Below are positions 49,479-61,085 of a stretch of DNA of 64,000 bases, piece by piece. The position numbers and the translations under genes were made by a program. The DNA comes from Patescibacteria group bacterium (GTDB taxonomy: Bacteria > Patescibacteriota > Patescibacteriia > JBDRGY01). The notes under the pieces were generated by a model. That model was not told the origin of the DNA. It searched no databases and saw only the letters and a program-made list of their open reading frames with translations. The stretch is from the NCBI GenBank assembly GCA_043817315.1, contig JBDRGY010000001.1:9732-73731 (forward strand). The letters run 5' to 3'. Every line of letters begins with the position of its first letter. Position 1 is the stretch's first letter.

Positions 49479-49505
49479 TTAGCACTCTCTACATAAGAGT
49501 GCTAA
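49479..49505 (+). promoter_or_regulatory. CIRCE operator (HrcA binding site) TTAGCACTC-N9-GAGTGCTAA, perfect match
   Basis: ttagcactc tctacataa gagtgctaa, 16 nt upstream of the hrcA start. Confidence 0.9.
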
Positions 49506-49520
49506 TGGGAGAATCTAACT

Positions 49521-50213
49521 ATGGATGACCGAAAAAAGGCCATTTTAAGCGAAATTTTAGAGGAGTATATCAAGTCAGCCAAACCGATTGGCTCCAAAGC
49601 TATTGTGGATAAATACTACAATGATCTGAGTTCGGCTACTATTCGTAATGAAATGAAGACTTTGGAAAAAGAAGGGTTTATTACCCATCCTCATACTTCA
49701 GCCGGCCGTATTCCCACAGAAAAAGGTTACCAGTTTTATATCGACAATTTCTTGAAGGAGAAGGAAGTCGCCAAGTCAGACCGGGAATTTATCCAGGGAA
49801 CTATCAGTCACTTTAAGAATTACGAACCGGATTTAGCTAAAAACCTGGCCAAGGCAATTTCCCACCTTTCTGACGAGACGGTCTTTGTGGCTTTTTCAGA
49901 AAATGACTTTTTCTACACCGGAATTTCCAATATCTTTAAAAAGCCGGAATTTGCCGATTTGCAATTAGTTTATAATATCTCAGAAATAATTGATCACATG
50001 GACGAAGTCTTAAACGAACTGTTTACAGAAATAGATCAGGGGACGATCCTGTTAGGCCAGCAAAATCCTTTTGGCGATTTTTGTTCCTCAGTGATTACCA
50101 AATACCACAACGAATCACAAAGCGGGTTACTGGGAATCTTAGGCCCTTTGCGTATGGACTACAATCGTAATAGACAACTGGTTAATTACGCTGAAAAATT
50201 ATTAAGTTCATAA
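49521..50213 (+). CDS. hrcA: heat-inducible transcription repressor HrcA (short form)
   Basis: N-terminal winged-helix MDDRKKAILSEILEEYIKSAKPIGSKAI, 230 aa. Confidence 0.85.
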   Translation: MDDRKKAILSEILEEYIKSAKPIGSKAIVDKYYNDLSSATIRNEMKTLEKEGFITHPHTSAGRIPTEKGYQFYIDNFLKEKEVAKSDREFIQGTISHFKNYEPDLAKNLAKAISHLSDETVFVAFSENDFFYTGISNIFKKPEFADLQLVYNISEIIDHMDEVLNELFTEIDQGTILLGQQNPFGDFCSSVITKYHNESQSGLLGILGPLRMDYNRNRQLVNYAEKLLSS

Positions 50214-50214
50214 A

Positions 50215-50721
50215 ATGATAGAAACCAATAAAACTTCTCGACAAAGCTCGAAGCAAGAAGAAGAAAAACACCCGGAAGAAATCGAGATTCTAAAAACCAA
50301 GATGGCAGAATATCTGGATGGCTGGAAACGTGCCAAGGCTGATTATCTTAATCAGAAGAAAGAGACAGAAGCTCAACTCAAAGATACGGTTATGTTTGCC
50401 AACGCCAGCCTTATCTTTGAACTGTTGCCGGTGATGGACAATTTTGATCGAGCTATGTCTCATGTCGCCAAGAAGGACAAAGACACCGATTGGGTTAAAG
50501 GTGTGGTTCAGATTCAGAAACAGCTGGAAGATATTTTGAAAATTGAAGGTGTTGAAAGAATCAAGACCGTTGGAGAAAAATTTAACCCGGAAGTTCATGA
50601 AGCCATTACCATGGAAGACAAAAAAGAAGAAGAATCAGGAATAATTTCGGAAGAAATGGAAGCCGGGTATAAATTGAATGAAAAAGTGCTACGACCGGCC
50701 AAGGTCAAAGTTATTAAATAA
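50215..50721 (+). CDS. grpE: nucleotide exchange factor GrpE
   Basis: Coiled-coil N-terminus and C-terminal GrpE beta domain (GYKLNEKVLRPAKV). Confidence 0.9.
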   Translation: MIETNKTSRQSSKQEEEKHPEEIEILKTKMAEYLDGWKRAKADYLNQKKETEAQLKDTVMFANASLIFELLPVMDNFDRAMSHVAKKDKDTDWVKGVVQIQKQLEDILKIEGVERIKTVGEKFNPEVHEAITMEDKKEEESGIISEEMEAGYKLNEKVLRPAKVKVIK

Positions 50722-51583: not shown

Positions 51584-51698
51584 ATAGTTTCACCCCCTTG
51601 TTGAAAAGAACATTTAGGTAATTAAGTTACTTTATTAAATATTAAGTATTTTGTCAACCACGCCCAAATTTTTTAAGAAATTTAGTCGGGTAAATAAT

Positions 51699-52013
51699 AT
51701 GAACAATAAATTAAAAATTCAATCTGATTGTCCCTTTTGCGGGTCAGAATACGATATGCAGTCTTTGCACGTTCTTGAAGAAAGAGGCAGCGGATTCTTA
51801 GCTCATCTCAAATGTATGAACTGTCACGGTGCCGTGGTTACCTTAGTTTCCATGAGTCCGCTGGGCGGTCTGCTGGTAACCGGAGTAGCTACTGACTTGC
51901 AGGAGAGCGAGGTTCTGGGATTTGAAAAAGGGGAAGAGGTTAGTTATGACGACGTAATAAATATTCACGGGCTTTTAGAAAATAACGGGGAGTTGTTTAT
52001 TGATGTGAATTAA
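51699..52013 (+). CDS. hypothetical Zn-ribbon protein (CPFCG...CMNCHG)
   Basis: ORF with probable ATG start MNNKLKIQSDCPFCG. The track ORF begins at a TTG at 51651. Confidence 0.4.
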   Translation: MNNKLKIQSDCPFCGSEYDMQSLHVLEERGSGFLAHLKCMNCHGAVVTLVSMSPLGGLLVTGVATDLQESEVLGFEKGEEVSYDDVINIHGLLENNGELFIDVN

Positions 52014-52300
52014 TGAAAGAAAAAACGTACTACGTTTACATGTTATCTAATAAAAGGAAGAATGTTCTTTACACGGGAATTACTGGAAATTTGGAAGGAA
52101 GAGTTAGAGAGCACAAGAATAAGTTAGTTATGGGGTTTACCAGTAAGTATAATGTTGATCTATTGGTGTATTACGAGGAATATAATGATGTTTATGATGC
52201 GATTGCAAGGGAAAAGCAGATAAAGGGATGGTTGCGTAGCAAAAAGGATCAATTGATTAATAAACTAAATCCTAAATGGAAAGATTTGAGCGAAGGATAA
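52013..52300 (+). CDS. small GIY-YIG nuclease-superfamily protein, copy 3
   Basis: TYYVYMLSNKRKNVLYTGITGNLEGRVREHKN. The ATG overlaps the upstream stop (TAATGA). Confidence 0.7.
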   Translation: MKEKTYYVYMLSNKRKNVLYTGITGNLEGRVREHKNKLVMGFTSKYNVDLLVYYEEYNDVYDAIAREKQIKGWLRSKKDQLINKLNPKWKDLSEG

Positions 52301-54724: not shown

Positions 54725-54973
54725 ATGAAAAAGTCAGAACGTTTCTTGGCTAAAGCCAAGCAGGAGGGCTATGATATTCCTCAAAAGTACCTGACCAAGT
54801 ATAAACTGCCCAAGTATCAGGATTTCATTATTTTGGGCAAATGTTGGCGAGCGCTCAAGAAAAAGAAGTTGTCTAAGGAGGATCGGCAGCAGGTGCGCTT
54901 TATTATGACTCAACTGCTAGCCAAATGGCGGCCGCCGTTGGAGAAAGAGATAGATAGGATTTTGAGAAAATAA
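54725..54973 (+). CDS. hypothetical small basic protein
   Basis: ORF only. Confidence 0.3.
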   Translation: MKKSERFLAKAKQEGYDIPQKYLTKYKLPKYQDFIILGKCWRALKKKKLSKEDRQQVRFIMTQLLAKWRPPLEKEIDRILRK

Positions 54974-55014: not shown

Positions 55015-55057
55015 GTTGGAAAAAGAAGAACCCCTGCACCACGATGTGATGCAGGGG
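55015..55057 (-). terminator. island terminator T1 (minus strand): hairpin cccctgcatcacatcgtggtgcagggg + T-rich tail
   Basis: Plus-strand cccctgcaccacgatgtgatgcagggg at 55030-55056, preceded by aaaaagaagaa on the plus strand. Near-identical to T2. Confidence 0.6.
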
Positions 55058-55088
55058 GTGCCCGAGATGGGCAAGGTGCGGATAGGAG

Positions 55089-55340
55089 TTACATGATAGG
55101 TCCGGAGATTTCTCCCATTCTATGCATCTCCTTGATCAGCTTGAAGAGCAGGAGCAGAGTATGAGAGGTAGCTTGGTCTACCTCTTCAGGGCTGGGTTCG
55201 CTGCCCTTTTCTTGGTGCAGGTTCTGGCGGACAGCATCCTCGATCCCGATGCGAGCCAGGTCAGCCCTTTCTTCTTCGCTGAGATTGAGAGTAGGATCCT
55301 TCAGAATCCTACTCATCTTGGTCATCGGTTTGCTGGCCAT
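55089..55340 (-). CDS. island gene J, hypothetical (83 aa), GC-rich
   Basis: ORF on the minus strand, last gene before T1. Confidence 0.4.
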   Translation of the reverse strand: MASKPMTKMSRILKDPTLNLSEEERADLARIGIEDAVRQNLHQEKGSEPSPEEVDQATSHTLLLLFKLIKEMHRMGEISGPIM

Positions 55341-55412
55341 TATTGACTCCTCTTTTCTCCAGCCAAAGCTGGGAAACCGTTAGTGGCTACCTCCCAACGA
55401 AAATAGGCTGAC

Positions 55413-55643
55413 TCAATCAATTACCAGAGAACCCGGCAAGAAGATGCGCGAGTTCGGGTGGCCCTCGATCGTGCCGTCGGGTGTTATCTTAACAGTATTA
55501 GTGCCGTCCACAAATTGGCACCCGCCGCTGGCAAAGGCTACAACTATTTGCGGCTTCATCAGCCTGCAGCTTGTCATTACGTCATTGCCTATTCCCGATA
55601 TGCAGATTATATCTGCCTTGCTGATCGCCTCGGCCCAGTTCAT
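55413..55643 (-). CDS. island gene I, hypothetical (76 aa) with ITPDGTIEG motif; may be fused with gene H if a frameshift is present
   Basis: ORF. It is 16 nt downstream of H in a different frame. Confidence 0.4.
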   Translation of the reverse strand: MNWAEAISKADIICISGIGNDVMTSCRLMKPQIVVAFASGGCQFVDGTNTVKITPDGTIEGHPNSRIFLPGSLVID

Positions 55644-55659
55644 CTCATCTCCTGTGTGT

Positions 55660-55989
55660 TTACCATGTTTCGAAGCAGCGGTGAAACTGCACCCGTTCTT
55701 GCAGCTCGATCCAGGCTCGTATTGGTGCCCGGTCCACCTGAACCCAGACCTGGCTTTTTATGTACCAGGTATCCTCGTTAACATCGAATCTCCCGTCCTT
55801 TTCCCGGTAAAGACGGCCTTGGTAATCCATCAGGAAACGAACTGAACCATCTTGGTCATTGACCATGGTCAGGATAGCCCCCTCTTTGACCAATTCAACG
55901 GCCTCGGGTTTTCCTTCCCAGGTCCCGCCATTCTTTAAGTCGTTGATGCGAAAGGGCTGTTCCGTATTGGCCAGACTGGCGATACTCAT
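55660..55989 (-). CDS. island gene H, hypothetical (109 aa)
   Basis: ORF with RBS agaggagag. Minus-strand promoter TTGACT-17-TATGAT at 56035-56062. Confidence 0.45.
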   Translation of the reverse strand: MSIASLANTEQPFRINDLKNGGTWEGKPEAVELVKEGAILTMVNDQDGSVRFLMDYQGRLYREKDGRFDVNEDTWYIKSQVWVQVDRAPIRAWIELQERVQFHRCFETW

Positions 55990-56034
55990 GGTGGCTCTCC
56001 TCTAAGGTGATTGAATGAAACGAACGGTTATTTA

Positions 56035-56062
56035 TCATATTAGAAACCACTAATTCAGTCAA
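56035..56062 (-). promoter_or_regulatory. island promoter P_H (TTGACT-17-TATGAT, minus strand)
   Basis: Reverse complement reads gtttgactgaattagtggtttctaatatgat. Confidence 0.5.
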
Positions 56063-56097
56063 ACAAAAAATCCCTGCACCACGTAGGTGATGCAGGG
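56063..56097 (-). terminator. island terminator T2 (minus strand)
   Basis: Plus-strand ccctgcaccacgtaggtgatgcaggg, preceded by aaacaaaaaat. On the minus strand this is a hairpin followed by atttttgttt. Confidence 0.6.
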
Positions 56098-56124
56098 CAT
56101 AGAGTTAGCAAAGAACAGTTGAAG

Positions 56125-56418
56125 TCAACTTTGAGGTTGACCTCTTCTCTGGCGAATCTGCTGGCCGCCTTTGATGTCTTCCTGGATCTCCAATTGCTGG
56201 TTTCTGTCGTGGACGTTGATGCCGTTGTCGTCAATGGTCACCGTGCCTGGCCGGGTTCCATGGATGACCACAGCCAGTCCGTCCCGGTATTCCTTGCAGT
56301 CAGCAATCTGACCTTTGAGGATGATCTTGGGTGCAGAGGTTCCCTTATCACCGGTGACTGACTGGGTCTTATCTACCAGTCGGGCAGACTGACCGAGTAA
56401 AACCTGACGATCGATCAT
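56125..56418 (-). CDS. island gene G, hypothetical (97 aa)
   Basis: ORF, 13 nt downstream of gene F. Confidence 0.4.
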   Translation of the reverse strand: MIDRQVLLGQSARLVDKTQSVTGDKGTSAPKIILKGQIADCKEYRDGLAVVIHGTRPGTVTIDDNGINVHDRNQQLEIQEDIKGGQQIRQRRGQPQS

Positions 56419-56431
56419 TAGCGTGCTCCTT

Positions 56432-57070
56432 TCAGACCTGACAGGCTCGAGCCGGGGGATAGACCCAGCTGTTACCCTGAAACTGGGTGACCAAGGGCAC
56501 TTCTATCACGAAGCCCTCGTCCTCTTCACTATCGATAACCTGAGCGAAGCAATCATGAAAAGCCCCAGCGGTCGGCTTGATCGTTCCGTCAGTTCGGATC
56601 ATCACTATGTGTTCCGGACCCTCGGAATTATCTTCATGGACGGTGACCAGGGTAATAACCACGATGTCAGGATCGCGCTCCGAAATGATCGGCCCTTCGA
56701 CTCTGCCTTGACGGATGACCTTTCCTGAACTGGCCTTGACGATCTGCAGGCCGTGGCAATCACGCAGCACGCTTTGCAGGAATTCGACGGGCAGGTGACG
56801 CCTTTCGGTAATCGGTAACCAGGTGCCATCTTCACCGATACGACGCTCGATCCGTATCTCGGGGATAGCCGAGTAGAACCCATCTGGTGTCACGGTAATT
56901 ATTCGGGGTTCGATGTCGTTGGGTCCCATCATCTTGATGTCCACTGGTCCCTTGGTATCTGACTGAGGGGTTATTTCTTCAACGGATCCCTCAAAAAGGA
57001 CTGCCCCATCCCGGTCAATCCGTGGATCTACTGCCCTGACCTGATCGTAATCAGCTAGCAAAACAGCCAT
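56432..57070 (-). CDS. island gene F, hypothetical (212 aa) with repeated (I/V)TPDG / RTDGTIKP motifs
   Basis: ORF. Promoter P_F lies upstream. Confidence 0.45.
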   Translation of the reverse strand: MAVLLADYDQVRAVDPRIDRDGAVLFEGSVEEITPQSDTKGPVDIKMMGPNDIEPRIITVTPDGFYSAIPEIRIERRIGEDGTWLPITERRHLPVEFLQSVLRDCHGLQIVKASSGKVIRQGRVEGPIISERDPDIVVITLVTVHEDNSEGPEHIVMIRTDGTIKPTAGAFHDCFAQVIDSEEDEGFVIEVPLVTQFQGNSWVYPPARACQV

Positions 57071-57135
57071 TGACCGATTCTCCTTATGGACTGCTGGGCC
57101 GATAGTAACCCACTGGAATGAGAAAAACTGGCTCT

Positions 57136-57164
57136 ATCTTATTAAAAACTAGAAGTTTAGTCAA
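57136..57164 (-). promoter_or_regulatory. island promoter P_F (TTGACT-17-TAAGAT, minus strand)
   Basis: Reverse complement reads ttgactaaacttctagtttttaataagat. Confidence 0.5.
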
Positions 57165-57165
57165 G

Positions 57166-57191
57166 AAAAAAAGCCCTGCAATTTGCAGAGC
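57166..57191 (-). terminator. island terminator T3 (minus strand)
   Basis: Plus-strand aaaaaaa + gccctgcaatttgcagagc. Confidence 0.55.
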
Positions 57192-57210
57192 TTGGGGAAT
57201 GAGTCCTAGA

Positions 57211-57771
57211 TTAGTCCTCATCTCGATCAGTGTCGATGAAGAGAACCTGTTGCCACTCCAACCAGTCATCAGAGTCTGACTTCCGAAACTGTACTACAGC
57301 ATTACCAGGTTGGTTGGCCAAGGAACCGTCCACGGTTCTGACAAGCAGACGCCTATCATTACCGCCTAGGTTGAGAAAATCTCCAGTACGGTAATGATCA
57401 AGGTAGCCGAAAGAAAGCCCATGTGGGACCTGCTGGTCGGCATTCCAGATACGGATAGACCAGCCAACTTGTACTACTTCATTGTGGTGAGCTTCCCAGG
57501 GCCCGAACCGGATCAGACTGCTAAGTTCCTGCCATCTGTCTGGTAGGTATACAACAGAGATAACCACCGAGGGATGGCTAAGACACTTACCGTCCCGTCC
57601 CACTTCGTAGGTTTGTTCTCCGATATGTTCCAAATCGACAGTGAAAGCCAAGCCGGACTCAGTCGGCCTCACTTTGGTAATTTCGGCAATCGGAGCTTCT
57701 GATCCTGGGGTCAGGGTACAAACGATTTTAACCAGCTGTTCCGGCTTGATAAAATCATGAATGATCATCAT
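57211..57771 (-). CDS. island gene E, hypothetical (~186 aa from MMIIHDF...), paralog of gene A (shared W-x-RIW-N/D-A and DDWLEWQQV motifs)
   Basis: ORF in the track runs 57211..57801. RBS gggagga precedes the ATGATG at 57771. Confidence 0.45.
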   Translation of the reverse strand: MMIIHDFIKPEQLVKIVCTLTPGSEAPIAEITKVRPTESGLAFTVDLEHIGEQTYEVGRDGKCLSHPSVVISVVYLPDRWQELSSLIRFGPWEAHHNEVVQVGWSIRIWNADQQVPHGLSFGYLDHYRTGDFLNLGGNDRRLLVRTVDGSLANQPGNAVVQFRKSDSDDWLEWQQVLFIDTDRDED

Positions 57772-57815
57772 TCCTCCCGTTTGGCGGTTTCTTCCTTTCA
57801 ATGTGCAATTAAACT

Positions 57816-57844
57816 ATCTTAGGAAATTAAGCCAAATAAGTCAA
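57816..57844 (-). promoter_or_regulatory. island promoter P_E (TTGACT-17-TAAGAT, minus strand)
   Basis: Reverse complement reads ttgacttatttggcttaatttcctaagat. Confidence 0.5.
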
Positions 57845-57871
57845 GTAACACAGCACCAGGTTCGGTGCAGG

Positions 57872-57901
57872 ATAAAAAAACCCCGTCAAAAACGACAGGG
57901 T
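57872..57901 (-). terminator. island terminator T4 (minus strand)
   Basis: Plus-strand aaaaaaa + ccccgtcaaaaacgacaggg. Confidence 0.55.
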
Positions 57902-57914
57902 CTAAGGAACGAAG

Positions 57915-58574
57915 TTAAGAGGTTAGTTGCCTGCGGCGATACAGCACAGCGGCGCGTTCGTCCACTGGGACAAAACCCAGTTCCGGCACTTCTTTCTCCA
58001 CGATGAAGTGGTCGTAGAACTGTGGGGGATCAGCACTGATTTGATGTGAGCCAGAATCACGTCCCGCTGCCAGGCGCAGGAAAAATCCCCGATTATGATC
58101 TGGAGGCATCTGCCGGATGTTGCCGGTAAAGATGATGCCCTTTTTCTGGCCTATACGGCGACGTCGCTCCTCGGTGTTGACGATGCGGACCACATCAGCT
58201 ACTTGGAAACGGCCTACTTGATGAGGATCCAGCTGACCTTGCAGCAGCAGCCAGGCCAGATCCTGATTGGCCATCAGGAAAGTGAGGAAGAACCAAGTGT
58301 CCTCGATTCTGACCAGGATTTCGATGACACCTCGCTTGGGGTAGGAGAAGTTGGGTGTAATGGTCTCAGCGACCTTACCACCCAGGTTAACCGTCAGCTT
58401 CTTCAAGGCGTGGAAGGGTCTATCCAGACGAATCTCTGCCTCCCGATCAGTAAAGGGGAGTCTGCCCAGCTCAATAAGGAGTTCAGCGAATTGGCTGGGG
58501 CGGATCCTGACACTTCTTCCTTTACAGAGAAGTAGTTTCAGTAGATCCAGAGGATACCTCTGTCTCTTGATCAT
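57915..58574 (-). CDS. island gene D, hypothetical (219 aa)
   Basis: ORF, third gene of the B-C-D unit. Confidence 0.4.
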   Translation of the reverse strand: MIKRQRYPLDLLKLLLCKGRSVRIRPSQFAELLIELGRLPFTDREAEIRLDRPFHALKKLTVNLGGKVAETITPNFSYPKRGVIEILVRIEDTWFFLTFLMANQDLAWLLLQGQLDPHQVGRFQVADVVRIVNTEERRRRIGQKKGIIFTGNIRQMPPDHNRGFFLRLAAGRDSGSHQISADPPQFYDHFIVEKEVPELGFVPVDERAAVLYRRRQLTS

Positions 58575-58589
58575 CTCTGACTCCTCGTC

Positions 58590-58871
58590 TCAATCATCAA
58601 CCCCGAACCTAACTTGCTTGAGAGTGGCACCGTCTTGGACAAAGAGCCGGAACTCATCACCAGGAACCGGCACCTGGCCATCGAAGGAGCAATTGAACAT
58701 GCATTCGCTTCGGCCAGTGACCATCTCTATCTGGACACCAACTCCCAGGTCGGTCAGTCTGGCAAACCTTCCTTTCAGATGATATTCACCGGCCAGGATG
58801 CGTTCGCTGGGAGTCTTGGGATCAGCCACTACTATAGTGTCGCCCGGGGTTAATCTTTCCACGGTTTCCAT
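58590..58871 (-). CDS. island gene C, hypothetical (93 aa)
   Basis: ORF. Confidence 0.4.
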   Translation of the reverse strand: METVERLTPGDTIVVADPKTPSERILAGEYHLKGRFARLTDLGVGVQIEMVTGRSECMFNCSFDGQVPVPGDEFRLFVQDGATLKQVRFGVDD

Positions 58872-58883
58872 TCAGCCTCTCCT

Positions 58884-59432
58884 TTATCGGGACAGCTTGT
58901 CTAGAGTGATCCATTTGCTGGCACCGGCGACCCAGTAAAACATCATCTGATCCTGCTGGCCCTTGATGTTGCCCTCGAGGTCGATGGTGGCTTGACGGTC
59001 TGTCTTGTTCTTGTCGCGATAGGTGACAATCCAGCCTTCTGGTGGATGATTGACCCTAATCAGGTCATTGATGGTGCCTTCCAGCAGGATCTCGGGATTG
59101 CCGTCTGGATCTTGAGACGGATAACCAATACCGATATAATCTCCGTCTCTTAGCGCTGCCCGCATGACCATTTCCTTTCTCGGCTCGGTAACTTGCCTCC
59201 ATTTTTCTTCAATTGGCAGCCGGTACTCGATTTTTTCTTCCGGATAGTCCACTAAGACTCCGTCAGGCTGGACTAACAGCCAGTCGTAGTTGATGCCCTT
59301 GCCTGGTCTGATCAGCCAGATACAGAAGTTATCTCCAGCTGTCTTTAAAGACATTATCAAGCCCAGATATTCCTCGGTTCCGTCAGGGTGGATACGACGG
59401 ATCCGATCTCCTTCCTGCAGGTAGAAGGCCAT
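58884..59432 (-). CDS. island gene B, hypothetical (182 aa) with HPDG/QPDG motifs
   Basis: ORF with RBS aataggag. Confidence 0.45.
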   Translation of the reverse strand: MAFYLQEGDRIRRIHPDGTEEYLGLIMSLKTAGDNFCIWLIRPGKGINYDWLLVQPDGVLVDYPEEKIEYRLPIEEKWRQVTEPRKEMVMRAALRDGDYIGIGYPSQDPDGNPEILLEGTINDLIRVNHPPEGWIVTYRDKNKTDRQATIDLEGNIKGQQDQMMFYWVAGASKWITLDKLSR

Positions 59433-59477
59433 TAGTAGCTCCTATTTGATGTCGATTTCTAAGGTGCGAATTGGGTT

Positions 59478-59506
59478 ATCTTAGCCAATATAATATATAA
59501 AGTCAA
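59478..59506 (-). promoter_or_regulatory. island promoter P_B (TTGACT-17-TAAGAT, minus strand)
   Basis: Reverse complement reads ttgactttatatattatattggctaagat. Confidence 0.5.
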
Positions 59507-59507
59507 G

Positions 59508-59541
59508 AAATAAAAACCCCGCTAAGTCTAATTTAGCGGGG
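59508..59541 (-). terminator. island terminator T5 (minus strand)
   Basis: Plus-strand aaataaaaa + ccccgctaagtctaatttagcgggg. Confidence 0.6.
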
Positions 59542-59550
59542 GACTAATGA

Positions 59551-60195
59551 TCAAGCTGCTGCCTCCACTTTGCCACCAATTGGCCATTTGGCACGGGCTT
59601 CCTCGGGCGGTGTCGGTTGTAAGCAGTATGCTTCGAAGGTAACTAGCCCCAGTTTGTTGCCGAACCAGCGGTAGATTTGGTAGGTTCGTTTACCATCCCT
59701 GACTCTGGCATCAAACCTGGCAAAAACTGGTACGTCCCTGTAAGCAGCATTCCGCACCGTGATGATGACGCCATCGGGGGTTACCCGGGTACCCTGGACT
59801 TTGCCACTGACTAGTACACCTACCCGGCCGCCGCGTTGGCGATCCTTCCTGCGCAGAGATTCGGGTACGGGAGTATCTGATATTTGAATGATGGTTTCCC
59901 TGGGCATAGTTGAAAAGGGTAGGGTGTAGCCTGGACCCAGGGCACAGACATCGTACCAGTCCAGCCATTCCTCAGATCCAGGTTCCTGGAACTGGACAAA
60001 ACGGGTGCTCCTGGAATTAACCACTGAACCGTCACAGCAATTCATGTGGATGCTATATCCCTTTTTATCAGAATTCCACAGGATGGAACCGGTTCCAGAA
60101 TGTCCTTGGTACTCCCATTCTTTCACGCACTTGTCGGCGACAGCGTCCCAGATACGTAGATGCCAGCCTTTACCGACTTGCTTTCTCTCGGGCAT
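59551..60195 (-). CDS. island gene A, hypothetical (214 aa), paralog of gene E
   Basis: ORF. Motifs WHLRIWDAVA and SEEWLDWYDV match WSIRIWNADQ and SDDWLEWQQV of gene E. Confidence 0.45.
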   Translation of the reverse strand: MPERKQVGKGWHLRIWDAVADKCVKEWEYQGHSGTGSILWNSDKKGYSIHMNCCDGSVVNSRSTRFVQFQEPGSEEWLDWYDVCALGPGYTLPFSTMPRETIIQISDTPVPESLRRKDRQRGGRVGVLVSGKVQGTRVTPDGVIITVRNAAYRDVPVFARFDARVRDGKRTYQIYRWFGNKLGLVTFEAYCLQPTPPEEARAKWPIGGKVEAAA

Positions 60196-60337
60196 CAGTT
60201 ATCCCTTTCGGCGCTGGCGCCAGCCTTCGGGTCGTTTACTGCCTCGATTCCTTCTAGAGGTGATTCCTAGTGAACTGTGGGTCAGGGTTAACCAGTTACC
60301 GTTTCGCGAAAGAAATTTCAGACATAGGTAACCAGGA

Positions 60338-60514
60338 TCACTGAAGTTGTTGTTTGGATTTATCTGATACACTATCGCGTCTTCGTATCATCATGACGGA
60401 TACTTTCTCACCTTCGATTTGATAACCGCCGTAATGTCCATGAGCTACTGGTTCTCCGACATTACTATCAAGGACACGAAGACGGGTTACGCCCTTGACC
60501 ACTTGTTTTCCCAT
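60338..60514 (-). CDS. island gene L, small hypothetical (58 aa, below track cutoff): MGKQVVKGVTRLRVLDSNVGEPVAHGHYGGYQIEGEKVSVMMIRRRDSVSDKSKQQLQ
   Basis: Hand translation. RBS ggaggg precedes the ATG at 60514. Confidence 0.4.
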   Translation of the reverse strand: MGKQVVKGVTRLRVLDSNVGEPVAHGHYGGYQIEGEKVSVMMIRRRDSVSDKSKQQLQ

Positions 60515-60560
60515 TTGGCACCCTCCAGCTTAGGTACTTAAATAAAGAACGAATTTATAT

Positions 60561-60589
60561 ATCTTATTAAATAGGTTATACTTAGTCAA
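60561..60589 (-). promoter_or_regulatory. island promoter P_L (TTGACT-17-TAAGAT, minus strand)
   Basis: Reverse complement reads ttgactaagtataacctatttaataagat. Confidence 0.5.
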
Positions 60590-60596
60590 GTGGCAC

Positions 60597-60633
60597 AATA
60601 AAAATAGGCCCTGCCAGTTTAGCCTGACAGGGC
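60597..60633 (-). terminator. island terminator T6 (minus strand)
   Basis: Plus-strand aataaaaatag + gccctgccagtttagcctgacagggc. Confidence 0.6.
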
Positions 60634-60652
60634 AAAGAACAGATGGAGGTCC

Positions 60653-60937
60653 TTAGTCGATACAGCCGAGGGCGATGAGGGTCTGACGACTCAGGCGAAT
60701 ACAGCCGAGGTCAGGATCTTCACAGTGCATCTCCCTGGCACCGTTGGCCCAGAGAGTGGCATCATGCATCACTTCGATGGACTGTACGCGGCCATTCTCA
60801 GTGATTTTAAAGAAGGTGCGGCCGTCACGGGCCGATATGTCCGATAAAGTCATGGGAAAGGCCCGTGGTACAAATTCCTCGCGGGCAGTGTCGTAGAGCC
60901 GGAGCCTGGAGCCCGGTTTCAACCTGCCTGTGCACAT
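60653..60937 (-). CDS. island gene K, hypothetical (94 aa)
   Basis: ORF with an upstream divergent intergenic region. Confidence 0.4.
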   Translation of the reverse strand: MCTGRLKPGSRLRLYDTAREEFVPRAFPMTLSDISARDGRTFFKITENGRVQSIEVMHDATLWANGAREMHCEDPDLGCIRLSRQTLIALGCID

Positions 60938-61085
60938 GAGTTACCTCCGTGGGCGTTTTCAAGGAATTCCCCGAAAACAAGCCAAAAGTGCCCTTATTTA
61001 TCCACAACAATTATTAATGATATCAGAAATTGCTAATGTTAGCAATTATCATATCAAGTATGACAATTAGGAAAGGAAAAACTTT

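What the first reader, a model, noticed from the sequence alone, without database searches (positions are those of the whole stretch)
56432..60195. Paralogous protein families inside the island
Gene A (59551-60195) and gene E (57211-57771) share two distinctive Trp motifs in the same order: WHLRIWDAVA / WSIRIWNADQ, and SEEWLDWYDV / SDDWLEWQQV. Gene B has a related DWLLVQPDG. Genes F and I (and B) repeat an (I/V)TPDG(T/F) or RTDGTIKP beta-strand-like motif. The island therefore contains diversified paralogs rather than unrelated cargo. This pattern is seen in polymorphic, surface or host-interaction families.
Basis: seen in the sequence. Interest (0 to 1): 0.6.

Follow-up and report, generated by a model that had tools for sequence, protein, structure and literature searches.

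The report
Orphan small-protein cassette island in Patescibacteria
A 6-kb foreign-looking island between the dnaK and dnaJ genes of a Patescibacteria genome holds twelve small, soluble, orphan proteins; several are true diverged duplicates, each group has its own promoter and terminator, and their function is unknown (nothing marks them as surface proteins).

Summary
The core observation is real. A (res 7-86) and E (res 100-179) share a ~80-aa Trp-rich domain (BLASTP E=4e-9; shuffle z=14-17). B (1-96) and F (1-104) share a second domain (E=4e-6), and the V(Q/T)PDG motif is a conserved column in it. The B 'DWL' link to A/E and the F-I link are not significant, and profile-profile tests do not join the families into one superfamily.

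The island (~55031-61048, minus strand) has 50% GC against a 41-42% host. It has Shine-Dalgarno sites on 10/12 genes, against 6-7/45 host genes. It forms six cassettes separated by a conserved terminator + TTGACT-N17-TAAGAT junction that occurs nowhere else in the window.

The same island type lies at the same site, next to DUF3467, in two other metagenomic contigs. Their gene content differs and includes more copies of the B/F and C families. More distant relatives have nothing there, or unrelated cargo (Fic, HD, Trypco2).

No homologues were found in 1.8-5.8 billion proteins, PDB, Pfam, PHROGs, PADLOC, phage or plasmid collections. No protein has a signal peptide or TM segment, so 'surface family' is unsupported.

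Best reading: a laterally acquired, moron-like cassette array of cytoplasmic beta-domain binding proteins, probably conflict or immunity related. That function is inferred, not shown.

The parts
55031..61048 (-). The whole island: six cassettes and 12 ORFs (13 reading frames), all on the minus strand, between the dnaK side (small ORFs ending at 54973) and the DUF3467 gene (61086)
   Evidence: GC is 0.48-0.53 against ~0.38-0.46 in the flanks. Gene GC3 is mostly 0.51-0.66 against 0.40-0.50 for host genes. SD sites are on 10/12 genes against 6-7/45 host genes. The island promoter motif occurs only here.
60653..60937 (-). g60653, 94 aa, first cassette. Orthologues are in L002 (47% identity) and, weakly, in L001
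   Evidence: SD GGAGG. Its promoter region, with the palindrome TTGCTAA-TG-TTAGCAA at ~61031-61046, is conserved in L002.
60561..60633 (-). Junction 1: intrinsic terminator (60633-60608) plus promoter TTGACT-N17-TAAGAT (60589-60561)
60199..60514 (-). g60338 (60338-60514) plus ORF 60199-60372: one ~104-aa gene with a very basic tail, split by a 1-nt frameshift near 60372
   Evidence: Both halves align to a single 112-aa protein of L001. Sequence at the shift is shown.
59551..60195 (-). Gene A, 214 aa (NCBI ABIB97_00515)
   Evidence: The L001 orthologue is 65% identical over 124 aa, dN/dS ~0.11 with dS saturated.
59938..60177 (-). W domain of A (res 7-86), with WHLRIW and EEWLDW
   Evidence: AF2 predicts six beta strands with only patchy confidence.
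59478..59541 (-). Junction 2: terminator 59541-59517 plus promoter 59506-59478
58884..59432 (-). Gene B, 182 aa (ABIB97_00510)
59145..59432 (-). BF domain of B (res 1-96), ending in the motif W-R-x-V-T-E-P-R
   Evidence: Homologous to F 1-104, to three L002 genes and to both halves of P0015. AF2 pLDDT is 68-96 per 10-residue block over res 1-80, with a six-strand all-beta fold.
58590..58871 (-). Gene C, 93 aa. Family C also includes L002 1608-1868, L002 473-769 and L022 519-776
   Evidence: The B-C gene pair is conserved in three genomes.
57915..58574 (-). Gene D, 219 aa, basic (pI 10.1), no relatives found
57816..57903 (-). Junction 3: terminator 57903-57878 plus promoter 57844-57816
57211..57771 (-). 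Gene E, 186 aa (ABIB97_00495). The true start is the ATG at 57771, not the TTG at 57801
57235..57474 (-). W domain of E (res 100-179), with WSIRIW and DDWLEW
57136..57193 (-). Junction 4: terminator 57193-57171 plus promoter 57164-57136
56432..57070 (-). Gene F, 212 aa. The BF domain is res 1-104 (56759-57070). The C-terminal half is unassigned
   Evidence: A weak GrpE-like hit (E=0.18) is not supported by direct comparison.
56125..56418 (-). Gene G, 97 aa. It has an orthologue in L002 and a tentative similarity to B's C-terminal half
56034..56097 (-). Junction 5: terminator 56097-56072 plus promoter 56062-56034 (TATGAT)
55660..55989 (-). Gene H, 109 aa, orphan
55413..55643 (-). Gene I, 76 aa, with KITPDGT. 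It has an SD site and island-like GC3 but is absent from the NCBI annotation
55089..55340 (-). Gene J, 83 aa, no DG turn motifs; looks helical by eye (not computed)
55031..55057 (-). Last terminator of the island. Its stem CCCCTGCA..TGCAGGGG resembles that of junction 5

Best explanation
Window ~55031-61048 is a laterally acquired accessory islet restricted to one narrow Patescibacteria lineage. It sits in a variable hotspot between dnaK and the DUF3467-membrane-dnaJ genes.

Anatomy (shown). It is an array of six self-contained expression cassettes on the strand opposite the host genes. Each cassette has a sigma-70-type promoter (C)TTGACT-N17-TAAGAT(A), one to three ATG ORFs led by Shine-Dalgarno sites, and an intrinsic terminator. 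Each terminator and the next promoter form a conserved ~60-90-nt junction element.

Proteins (shown). The 12 products are small (76-219 aa) and soluble. Both AF2 models (A and B) are almost all-beta. There are no detectable relatives outside this lineage.

How the repertoire grew (inferred from the alignments). It grew by duplication and domain shuffling. The W domain is N-terminal in A and C-terminal in E. The BF domain is N-terminal in B and F, stands alone in relatives, and is tandemly doubled in P0015. The order A | B(BF + G-like) parallels E | F(BF) + G, which suggests an old duplication of two adjacent cassettes.

Function (inferred, not shown). The proteins act in the cytoplasm as constitutively expressed binding or neutralising modules in a genetic-conflict setting: an immunity-type or anti-phage-type repertoire, possibly working as BF+C pairs. 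They are unlikely to be enzymes or surface proteins.
For: Paralogy.

Family members elsewhere:
- L001 carries an A orthologue next to the same DUF3467 and membrane genes.
- L002 carries g60653, B, C and G orthologues plus two more BF genes and one more C gene.
- P0015 is a tandem BF-BF protein followed by a C orthologue.

Cassette structure:
- Five promoters and six terminators lie on the minus strand.
- The promoter pattern occurs 5 times and only in the island, against 0.19 expected.
- The same junctions are present in L001 and L002.

Foreign character:
- GC is 0.50 against 0.41 in all three genomes.
- SD sites are on 10/12 island genes against 6-7/45 host genes.

Hotspot: the dnaK-DUF3467 gap ranges from 86 bp to 5.3 kb in relatives. 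Where it is filled it holds unrelated cargo, including Fic, HD, SEC-C and Trypco2 proteins. L005 has an ~8-kb insert flanked by two DUF3467 copies.

Real, constrained genes: dN/dS is 0.09-0.33, with dS saturated, and nine of the twelve ORFs match NCBI gene calls exactly.

Soluble. All-beta, with a confident N-domain in B.

Orphan status.
Against: Nothing speaks directly to function. There is no homology to known immunity, defence, anti-defence or toxin families, and no significant fold match. Foldseek against PDB gives E>=0.06. Foldseek against BFVD gives only weak hits (E>=0.012) to small uncharacterised phage proteins.

No recombinase or other mobility gene is in or next to the island, so how cassettes are gained and lost is unknown.

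Synonymous sites are saturated between the three genomes, yet the high GC persists. That fits repeated re-acquisition or selection, but neither is shown.

Several genes (D, H, I, J) belong to no family, so 'one repertoire' may overstate the unity of the island.

Only three genomes carry the island, two of them as fragments.
Confidence: 0.55

Rival explanations
1. One reading: a polymorphic surface or host-interaction family, meaning variable exposed proteins that the episymbiotic cell uses to contact its bacterial host or evade recognition.
For: There is real diversification, paralogy and gene turnover between close relatives. Patescibacteria are known from the literature to be largely episymbiotic; this is background knowledge, not tested here.
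Against: No signal peptide, lipobox or TM segment is present in any of the 12 window proteins or the 13 related proteins tested. No adhesin, repeat or anchor domain is found. There are no long repeats or variable/template pairs.
Confidence: 0.08
2. A domesticated or decaying piece of a phage or phage satellite: an early-gene or moron block whose small proteins once served host takeover or superinfection exclusion.
For: Each gene group has its own strong promoter and terminator, and a composition different from its surroundings. These are the usual criteria for morons (PMC2920897). SD use is unlike the host's. The only structural neighbours of the B domain are small uncharacterised phage proteins, and those matches are weak.
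Against: There are no phage structural, replication, lysis or integrase genes in or near the island. There is no match in 50,697 phage genomes or in four pattern scans of IMG/VR contigs. The island is kept at the same chromosomal site in three genomes whose synonymous sites are saturated, and it shows dN/dS<0.35.
Confidence: 0.2
3. Two-gene toxin-antitoxin-like or toxin-immunity modules. The BF-family protein and the acidic C-family protein would form a neutralising pair, and the array would be a stack of such modules.
For: A BF gene immediately followed by a C gene recurs four times in three genomes: window B-C, L002 2138-1868 and 1055-769, and L022 P0015-519. In the five cases where upstream sequence is available, the BF gene is the first gene after a junction promoter. 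C-family proteins are acidic, pI 4.7-4.8.
Against: There is no similarity to any TA, toxin or immunity family. F is followed by G, not by a C gene. A, E, D, H, I and J do not fit the scheme. No nuclease or other toxic fold is recognisable in the confident B model.
Confidence: 0.1
4. Chaperone-linked function: the island encodes co-factors or clients of DnaK/DnaJ/GrpE, because it lies inside the hrcA-grpE-dnaK-dnaJ neighbourhood.
For: The island lies between dnaK and DUF3467-membrane-dnaJ. There is one weak NCBIfam hit of F res 155-191 to the GrpE C-terminal region, E=0.18.
Against: The island is on the opposite strand and has its own promoters. The single CIRCE operator is at 49479-49505, upstream of hrcA, and none is in the island. 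F compared with the window's own GrpE is not significant, E=49. Relatives have the same operon with no island, or with unrelated cargo at this site.
Confidence: 0.04
5. The motif sharing is chance, or merely the signature of beta-hairpin-rich composition, and there is no paralogy.
For: Most pairwise and profile comparisons are not significant. PDG is a common beta-turn former; this is background knowledge.
Against: A-E has E=4e-9 and B-F has E=4e-6 over 83-105 residues with composition correction. No shuffle reached either score. Independent orthologues extend both families.
Confidence: 0.03

Closest known systems
Phage 'morons' (Hendrix/Juhala concept; criteria as summarised in PMC2920897)
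   Same: Autonomous units made of a sigma-70-type promoter, gene(s) and a factor-independent terminator. Their base composition differs from the surroundings. They are variably present at the same position in related genomes, and different cargo enters the same hotspot.
   Different: Morons are by definition inserted between genes of a phage or prophage. Here the flanks are housekeeping genes (dnaK, DUF3467, dnaJ) and no phage gene or phage homologue was found. Here six units are stacked in tandem and joined by a conserved terminator-promoter element.
Recombinase-associated acquired interbacterial defence arrays (rAID-1) of Bacteroidales (bioRxiv 10.1101/471110)
   Same: One-directional arrays of many small genes, skewed GC content, repetitive intergenic sequences, rapid turnover between strains and paralogous or diverged members. 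This is the model for the 'repertoire of neutralising proteins' idea.
   Different: rAID-1 is defined by a conserved XerD-family recombinase and by homology of its members to T6SS or other immunity genes. Neither is present here. The host phylum is different, and the intergenic repeat here is an ordinary terminator plus promoter.
Integron gene-cassette arrays
   Same: Tandem, same-strand small ORFan cassettes separated by a recurring hairpin-containing element, with content that varies between relatives.
   Different: There is no intI integrase and no Pc/attI. Integron cassettes are mostly promoterless, whereas these each carry a promoter. The hairpins here are short G+C stems followed by T-runs (terminators), not 60-140-nt attC sites.
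Genomic islands of Patescibacteria in general (PMC12455944)
   Same: Hundreds of compositionally deviant, laterally acquired islands have been reported in aquifer Patescibacteria genomes. This one fits that general picture.
   Different: That work describes islands with recognisable functions (R-M systems, translation genes and others). This island consists only of orphan paralogous small proteins in a regular cassette layout.

Membership tests
Phage moron | Own promoter and terminator around the gene(s) | tested here: met
   Five TTGACT-N17-TA(A/T)GAT promoters and six intrinsic terminators bracket the gene groups.
Phage moron | Base composition different from the surrounding genome | tested here: met
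   GC 0.50 against 0.41-0.42; GC3 mostly 0.51-0.66 against 0.40-0.50.
Phage moron | Inserted between genes of a phage or prophage, and found in phages | tested here: not met
   The flanks are dnaK and DUF3467/dnaJ. No PHROGs hit. No tblastn hit in 50,697 phage records. None in IMG/VR pattern scans.
rAID-1 / orphan immunity array | Adjacent conserved XerD-family tyrosine recombinase | tested here: not met
   No integrase or recombinase domain in any island protein or in the immediate neighbours. The rest of the 321-kb contig could not be examined.
rAID-1 / orphan immunity array | Members homologous to known toxin-immunity genes | tested here: not met
   No Pfam (including Imm/SUKH-type models), NCBIfam or PADLOC hit at E<=1 for 10 proteins.
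rAID-1 / orphan immunity array | Skewed GC and repetitive intergenic sequences | tested here: met
   GC; ten aligned junction elements in three genomes.
Integron cassette array | IntI integrase with attI/Pc at one end | tested here: not met
   No integrase. The ends of the island are a terminator (55031-55057) and a divergent promoter region shared with DUF3467.
Integron cassette array | attC recombination sites after each cassette | not tested
   No attC model was available. By eye the inter-cassette hairpins are 23-27-nt G+C stems followed by T-runs, as expected of terminators.
Polymorphic surface / secreted protein family | Export signal: signal peptide, lipobox, TM anchor or a known secretion domain | tested here: not met
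   The highest 19-residue hydropathy is 1.38 and no N-terminal h-region is present in 25 proteins. No such Pfam domains. The test was a simple hydropathy scan, not a dedicated predictor.
Diversity-generating retroelement target | Reverse transcriptase plus a template/variable repeat pair | tested here: not met
   No RT domain. The longest direct repeats in the island are 31 nt and are the promoters.
Toxin-antitoxin / known anti-phage defence system | Match to a described TA or defence protein family | tested here: not met
   PADLOC, Pfam and NCBIfam all empty.
W-domain family (A/E; defined here) | ~80-aa domain with GW-x-[LI]-R-[IV]-[WK] ... DGS ... VQF ... S-[ED]-[ED]-W-L-[DE]-W | tested here: met
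   Present in A, E and the L001 orthologue. No other true member among 1.84 billion representatives.
BF-domain family (B/F; defined here) | ~88-aa N-terminal all-beta domain with V-[QT]-P-D-G and a C-terminal W-x-x-x-T-E-[PR]-R | tested here: met
   Present in B, F, three L002 genes and P0015 (twice). The AF2 model is confident for B res 1-88.

The most novel reading that the evidence does not exclude
A previously undescribed kind of cassette array in Candidate Phyla Radiation bacteria. The conserved terminator-promoter junction would be the unit of cassette gain, loss and shuffling, either by homologous exchange or through a recombinase encoded elsewhere. The cargo would be a new superfamily of small beta-barrel binder proteins (W, BF and C domains as diverged relatives) serving as an expandable immunity or anti-phage repertoire for an episymbiont with a tiny genome.
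Probability: 0.12. Interest if true: 0.7.

Novelty: new variant of a known kind. Interest (0 to 1): 0.4.

Why it matters
Patescibacteria have about 1-Mb genomes with little room for accessory DNA. A 6-kb block of constrained, independently transcribed orphan genes, kept at one site in several diverged genomes, therefore probably does something useful for the cell.

The regular cassette layout gives clear experimental handles: defined promoters, terminators and gene pairs such as BF+C.

Two or three new protein domain families are defined here. None has a relative among billions of sequences.

If the proteins prove to be immunity or anti-phage binders, this would be a recombinase-less counterpart, in a very different phylum, of the orphan-immunity arrays of gut Bacteroidales.

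If they do not, it remains an ordinary, well-delimited example of an ORFan genomic islet with tandem gene duplication.

Tried and rejected
1. A concatenated 1419-aa query of 11 island proteins in the search for homologous proteins returned nothing, not even self hits. D, E-N, G, H, I and J were therefore never searched individually against the large protein database. Only 90%-identity cluster look-ups were done for them; C-H, J and g60653 are singletons, and I and the 58-aa g60338 ORF are not in the collection.

2. Exact look-ups of A, DnaK and P0001 in the contig index found nothing. The source contig beyond the window could not be read.

3. In the full HMMER search with the A/E profile, hits 3-11 are long tandem-repeat Ig-like proteins that match 20-50 profile positions many times over. 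They were rejected as spurious.

4. One superfamily for all island domains: hhalign between the W, BF and C profiles gives probabilities of 0.06-6.6%. In 136 local profile comparisons only family C against A's C-terminal half survives correction, and only just (P=2e-4). There is an excess of P<0.01 values, 9 against ~1.4 expected, which is suggestive only.

6. The GrpE-like hit in F was rejected.

7. A DUF3467 remnant at the left edge of the island was looked for and not found.

8. tRNA or ncRNA at the borders: none. The only Rfam or ARAGORN hits are two distant tRNAs.

9. Flanking direct repeats or att sites: none convincing.

10. Plasmid origin: no tblastn hit in PLSDB.

Full report
**What is at the coordinates.**
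Between 55.0 and 61.05 kb the window changes character. GC rises from about 0.38-0.46 to 0.48-0.53. All substantial ORFs switch to the minus strand, whereas the rest of the window is almost entirely plus-strand.

Twelve ORFs fill the space: g60653, g60338, then A to J. A is 59551-60195, B 58884-59432, C 58590-58871, D 57915-58574, E 57211-57771, F 56432-57070, G 56125-56418, H 55660-55989, I 55413-55643 and J 55089-55340.

All twelve start with ATG. Ten have a GGAG/GAGG Shine-Dalgarno site 4-16 nt upstream, against only 6-7 of 45 host genes in the window.

Nine of the ORFs (A-H and J) coincide exactly with NCBI gene calls ABIB97_00475 to 00515 of a 'Patescibacteria group bacterium' MAG, all named hypothetical protein. 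ORF I is not annotated there, but it has an SD site and island-like GC3.

**Checking the observation.**
They are the two ends of one homologous domain: A res 7-86 against E res 100-179, 33% identity, BLASTP E=4e-9 with composition adjustment. Smith-Waterman gives z=14-17 against shuffles and P~1e-9 to 1e-10, by far the best of 66 pairs. The domain is N-terminal in A and C-terminal in E.

B and F are homologous over their first ~100 residues: 29% identity, E=4e-6; z=8. The V(Q/T)PDG motif is one conserved column of this 'BF' domain, which ends in W-x-x-x-T-E-P-R.

The other proposed links fail:
- The A/E profile against the BF profile gives hhalign P=0.11 and aligns only a DG hairpin, so B's 'DWL' is not the A/E 'DWL'.
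- F against I gives E=18.

PDG-type turns are nevertheless over-represented in the island as a whole. There are 6 PDG against 0.54 expected and 5 [VILT]xPDG against 0.14, and none of 2000 shuffles reached either count. This may reflect very distant common ancestry or simply a preferred hairpin turn in all-beta proteins.

**Architecture of the island.**
Five promoters of the form TTGACT-N17-TA(A/T)GAT and six intrinsic terminators lie on the minus strand. The promoter pattern, allowing one mismatch, occurs five times. All five are in the island on the minus strand, against 0.19 expected in the 64-kb window.

Each terminator is followed within 0-40 nt by the next promoter. This gives a recurring junction element: a hairpin, often CCCTGCA...TGCAGGG; a T-run; CTTGACT; 17 nt; TAAGATA.

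The transcription units are [g60653] [g60338/ORF60199, A] [B, C, D] [E] [F, G] [H, I, J].

**Relatives.**
A alone has only a self hit among 5.8 billion clusters. A full HMMER pass of the A/E profile over 1.84 billion representatives finds only A and E. The remaining hits are tandem-repeat proteins matching short pieces many times, and are spurious.

A pattern scan of JGI metagenomes found one contig, L001. It carries dnaJ, the membrane protein (59% identity), DUF3467 (84%) and then, on the other strand, the same kind of island. That island has a g60653-like gene, an extra 93-aa gene, a 112-aa gene equal to g60338 plus ORF 60199-60372 fused, and an A orthologue (65% over 124 aa) cut off by the contig end.

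A scan of GTDB genomes with DUF3467 found L002, whose DUF3467 is 96% identical. Its island holds g60653, B (BF domain only), C and G orthologues, followed by another BF gene, another C-like gene and a third BF gene.

The BF profile retrieved only B, those three L002 proteins and P0015. P0015 is a 170-aa tandem BF-BF protein from the same JGI sample as L001, and it is followed by a C orthologue.

Both relatives show the same junction elements and the same GC contrast, 0.50 against 0.41.

**The site is a hotspot.**
The neighbourhood is the heat-shock cluster. A perfect CIRCE sits at 49479-49505, followed by hrcA, grpE, two small inserts, dnaK, [island], DUF3467, a membrane protein and dnaJ.

In more distant Patescibacteria the dnaK-DUF3467 gap is 86 bp (L012), 315 bp (L009), 0.8-1 kb (L007, L011, L005), 3.1 kb (L003) or 5.3 kb (L006). 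The large gaps hold unrelated plus-strand cargo: SEC-C-motif, HD, Fic/DOC and Trypco2 proteins, a methyltransferase and a hydrolase.

In L005 an ~8-kb block of other cargo is bracketed by two DUF3467 copies that are 85% identical in DNA.

So the island is an insertion relative to the ancestral layout, and different cargo has entered the same place repeatedly.

**Are these real, constrained genes?**
Between orthologues dN is 0.25-0.88 and dN/dS is 0.09-0.33. dS is saturated, so the ratios are rough. The flanking membrane protein has dN 0.32-0.34 and DUF3467 has 0.01-0.10. The island proteins therefore evolve as fast as, or faster than, the fastest neighbour, but under purifying selection.

**How the repertoire arose (inference).**
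Several observations point to tandem duplication and domain shuffling:
- The W domain occupies different positions in A and E.
- The BF domain occurs alone (L002), doubled (P0015), or fused to other domains (B, F).
- A's C-terminal half resembles family C (hhalign P=2e-4, borderline after 136 tests).
- B's C-terminal half resembles G (P~1e-3).

The gene order A | B(BF+G-like) mirrors E | F(BF), G, which suggests an old duplication of two neighbouring cassettes. In L002 the BF-C pair is itself repeated.

The three family profiles are not significantly related to one another, so a single superfamily is not shown.

**What the proteins might do.**
There is no hit in Pfam, PHROGs, NCBIfam or PADLOC. 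PDB sequence searches give nothing. Phage and plasmid genomes give nothing, and neither do IMG/VR pattern scans.

AlphaFold gives a confident six-strand all-beta N-domain for B: pLDDT is 68-96 per 10-residue block over res 1-80 (mean ~86). The model for A is poor (mean pLDDT 45) but also all-beta.

No protein has a TM segment or a signal-like N-terminus.

The features to be explained are: small soluble binding-type domains; strong independent expression signals; foreign composition and translation signals; rapid turnover; duplication; and a hotspot that elsewhere holds conflict-type genes. My best guess is a cytoplasmic repertoire of neutralising or sensing proteins, immunity-like or anti-phage-like, possibly acting as BF+C pairs. 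This is inference only. I put about 0.3 on the functional part and about 0.85 on the structural and evolutionary description.

**Comparison with known systems.**
The units meet two moron criteria, own promoter/terminator and deviant GC (PMC2920897), but they are not inside a phage.

The array resembles rAID-1 orphan-immunity arrays in its skewed GC, repetitive intergenic sequence and many small one-directional genes (bioRxiv 10.1101/471110). It lacks the defining XerD-type recombinase and any homology to immunity genes.

It resembles integron arrays only superficially: there is no intI, the cassettes carry promoters, and the hairpins are terminators.

Genomic islands as such are already documented in Patescibacteria (PMC12455944).

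I therefore rate it a new variant of a known kind, an ORFan cassette islet containing two or three new domain families, and of moderate interest.

Noticed in passing
window 60199-60514 (-), shift near 60372: g60338 (58 aa) and the overlapping ORF 60199-60372 (57 aa) are the two halves of one gene. Both align to a single 112-aa protein in L001. Skipping one G in ...CGC GAT AGT [G] TAT CAG ATA... restores the frame. This could be a pseudogene, an assembly error or a +1 frameshift site. The product has a very basic tail (RRNRGSKRPEGWRQRRKG).
   Followed up: partly
window 55031-55057, 56034-56097, 57136-57193, 57816-57903, 59478-59541, 60561-60633; L001 4529-4594 and 4949-5013; L002 2181-2258, 1123-1236 and 370-460: A conserved terminator-plus-promoter junction element separates the cassettes in all three genomes. 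It consists of a hairpin (often CCCTGCA..TGCAGGG), a T-run and CTTGACT-N17-TAAGAT. It could also serve as the homology used for cassette exchange.
   Followed up: partly
window 55413-55643 (-): ORF I (76 aa, contains KITPDGT) has a good SD site (CAGGAG) and island-like GC3 (0.64). It is missing from the NCBI annotation: locus tags jump from 00475 (J) to 00480 (H). It is probably an unannotated gene.
   Followed up: partly
window whole; island versus host genes: Only 6-7 of 45 host genes have a GGAG/GAGG/AGGA motif at -16 to -4, against 10 of 12 island genes. The host seems to make little use of Shine-Dalgarno sites, while the island relies on them.
   Followed up: partly
window 61029-61048, and L002 ~2640-2660: The palindrome AATTGCTAA-TG-TTAGCAATT sits in the divergent promoter region between g60653 and DUF3467 and is conserved in L002. 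It may be an operator, or overlapping back-to-back -35 boxes.
   Followed up: no
window 49479-49505 (+): A perfect CIRCE operator (TTAGCACTC-N9-GAGTGCTAA) lies just upstream of hrcA (49521-50213) and grpE (50215-50721). It is the only one in the window.
   Followed up: yes
window 51651-52300 (+): A 120-aa ORF with no Pfam match (its CxxC pairs suggest a zinc ribbon; by eye only) and a GIY-YIG nuclease-domain ORF (95 aa) sit between grpE and dnaK. This looks like another small insertion in the heat-shock cluster.
   Followed up: no
L005 2355-2642 and 10574-10864: Two DUF3467 genes, 85% identical in DNA over 276 bp, bracket ~8 kb of unrelated cargo between dnaK and the membrane protein. The pattern would fit an element that brings its own DUF3467 copy, or recombination at that gene; neither was tested.
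   Followed up: partly
L006 4716-9485 and L003 6889-9903: In these relatives the same dnaK-DUF3467 gap holds SEC-C-motif, HD, Fic/DOC and Trypco2 proteins (L006), or deoxyribosyltransferase-like, serine-hydrolase and methyltransferase genes (L003).
   Followed up: partly
L002 (JAIWBS010000011.1): This 8.1-kb contig is deposited in a 'Pirellulales' MAG. Its DUF3467 gene is 96% identical to the window's, and it carries the same island, membrane-protein gene and 41% GC. It is very probably a mis-binned Patescibacteria contig.
   Followed up: no
window 56432-57070 (-), F res 155-191: There is a weak NCBIfam match to the C-terminal region of GrpE (E=0.18). It is intriguing given the dnaK neighbourhood, but direct comparison with the window's own GrpE is not significant (E=49).
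   Followed up: yes
window B-C; L002 2138-1868 and 1055-769; L022 2-514 and 519-776: A BF-family gene is immediately followed by an acidic C-family gene four times in three genomes. In the five cases where upstream sequence is available, the BF gene is the first gene after a junction promoter. This may be a two-protein functional module.
   Followed up: partly
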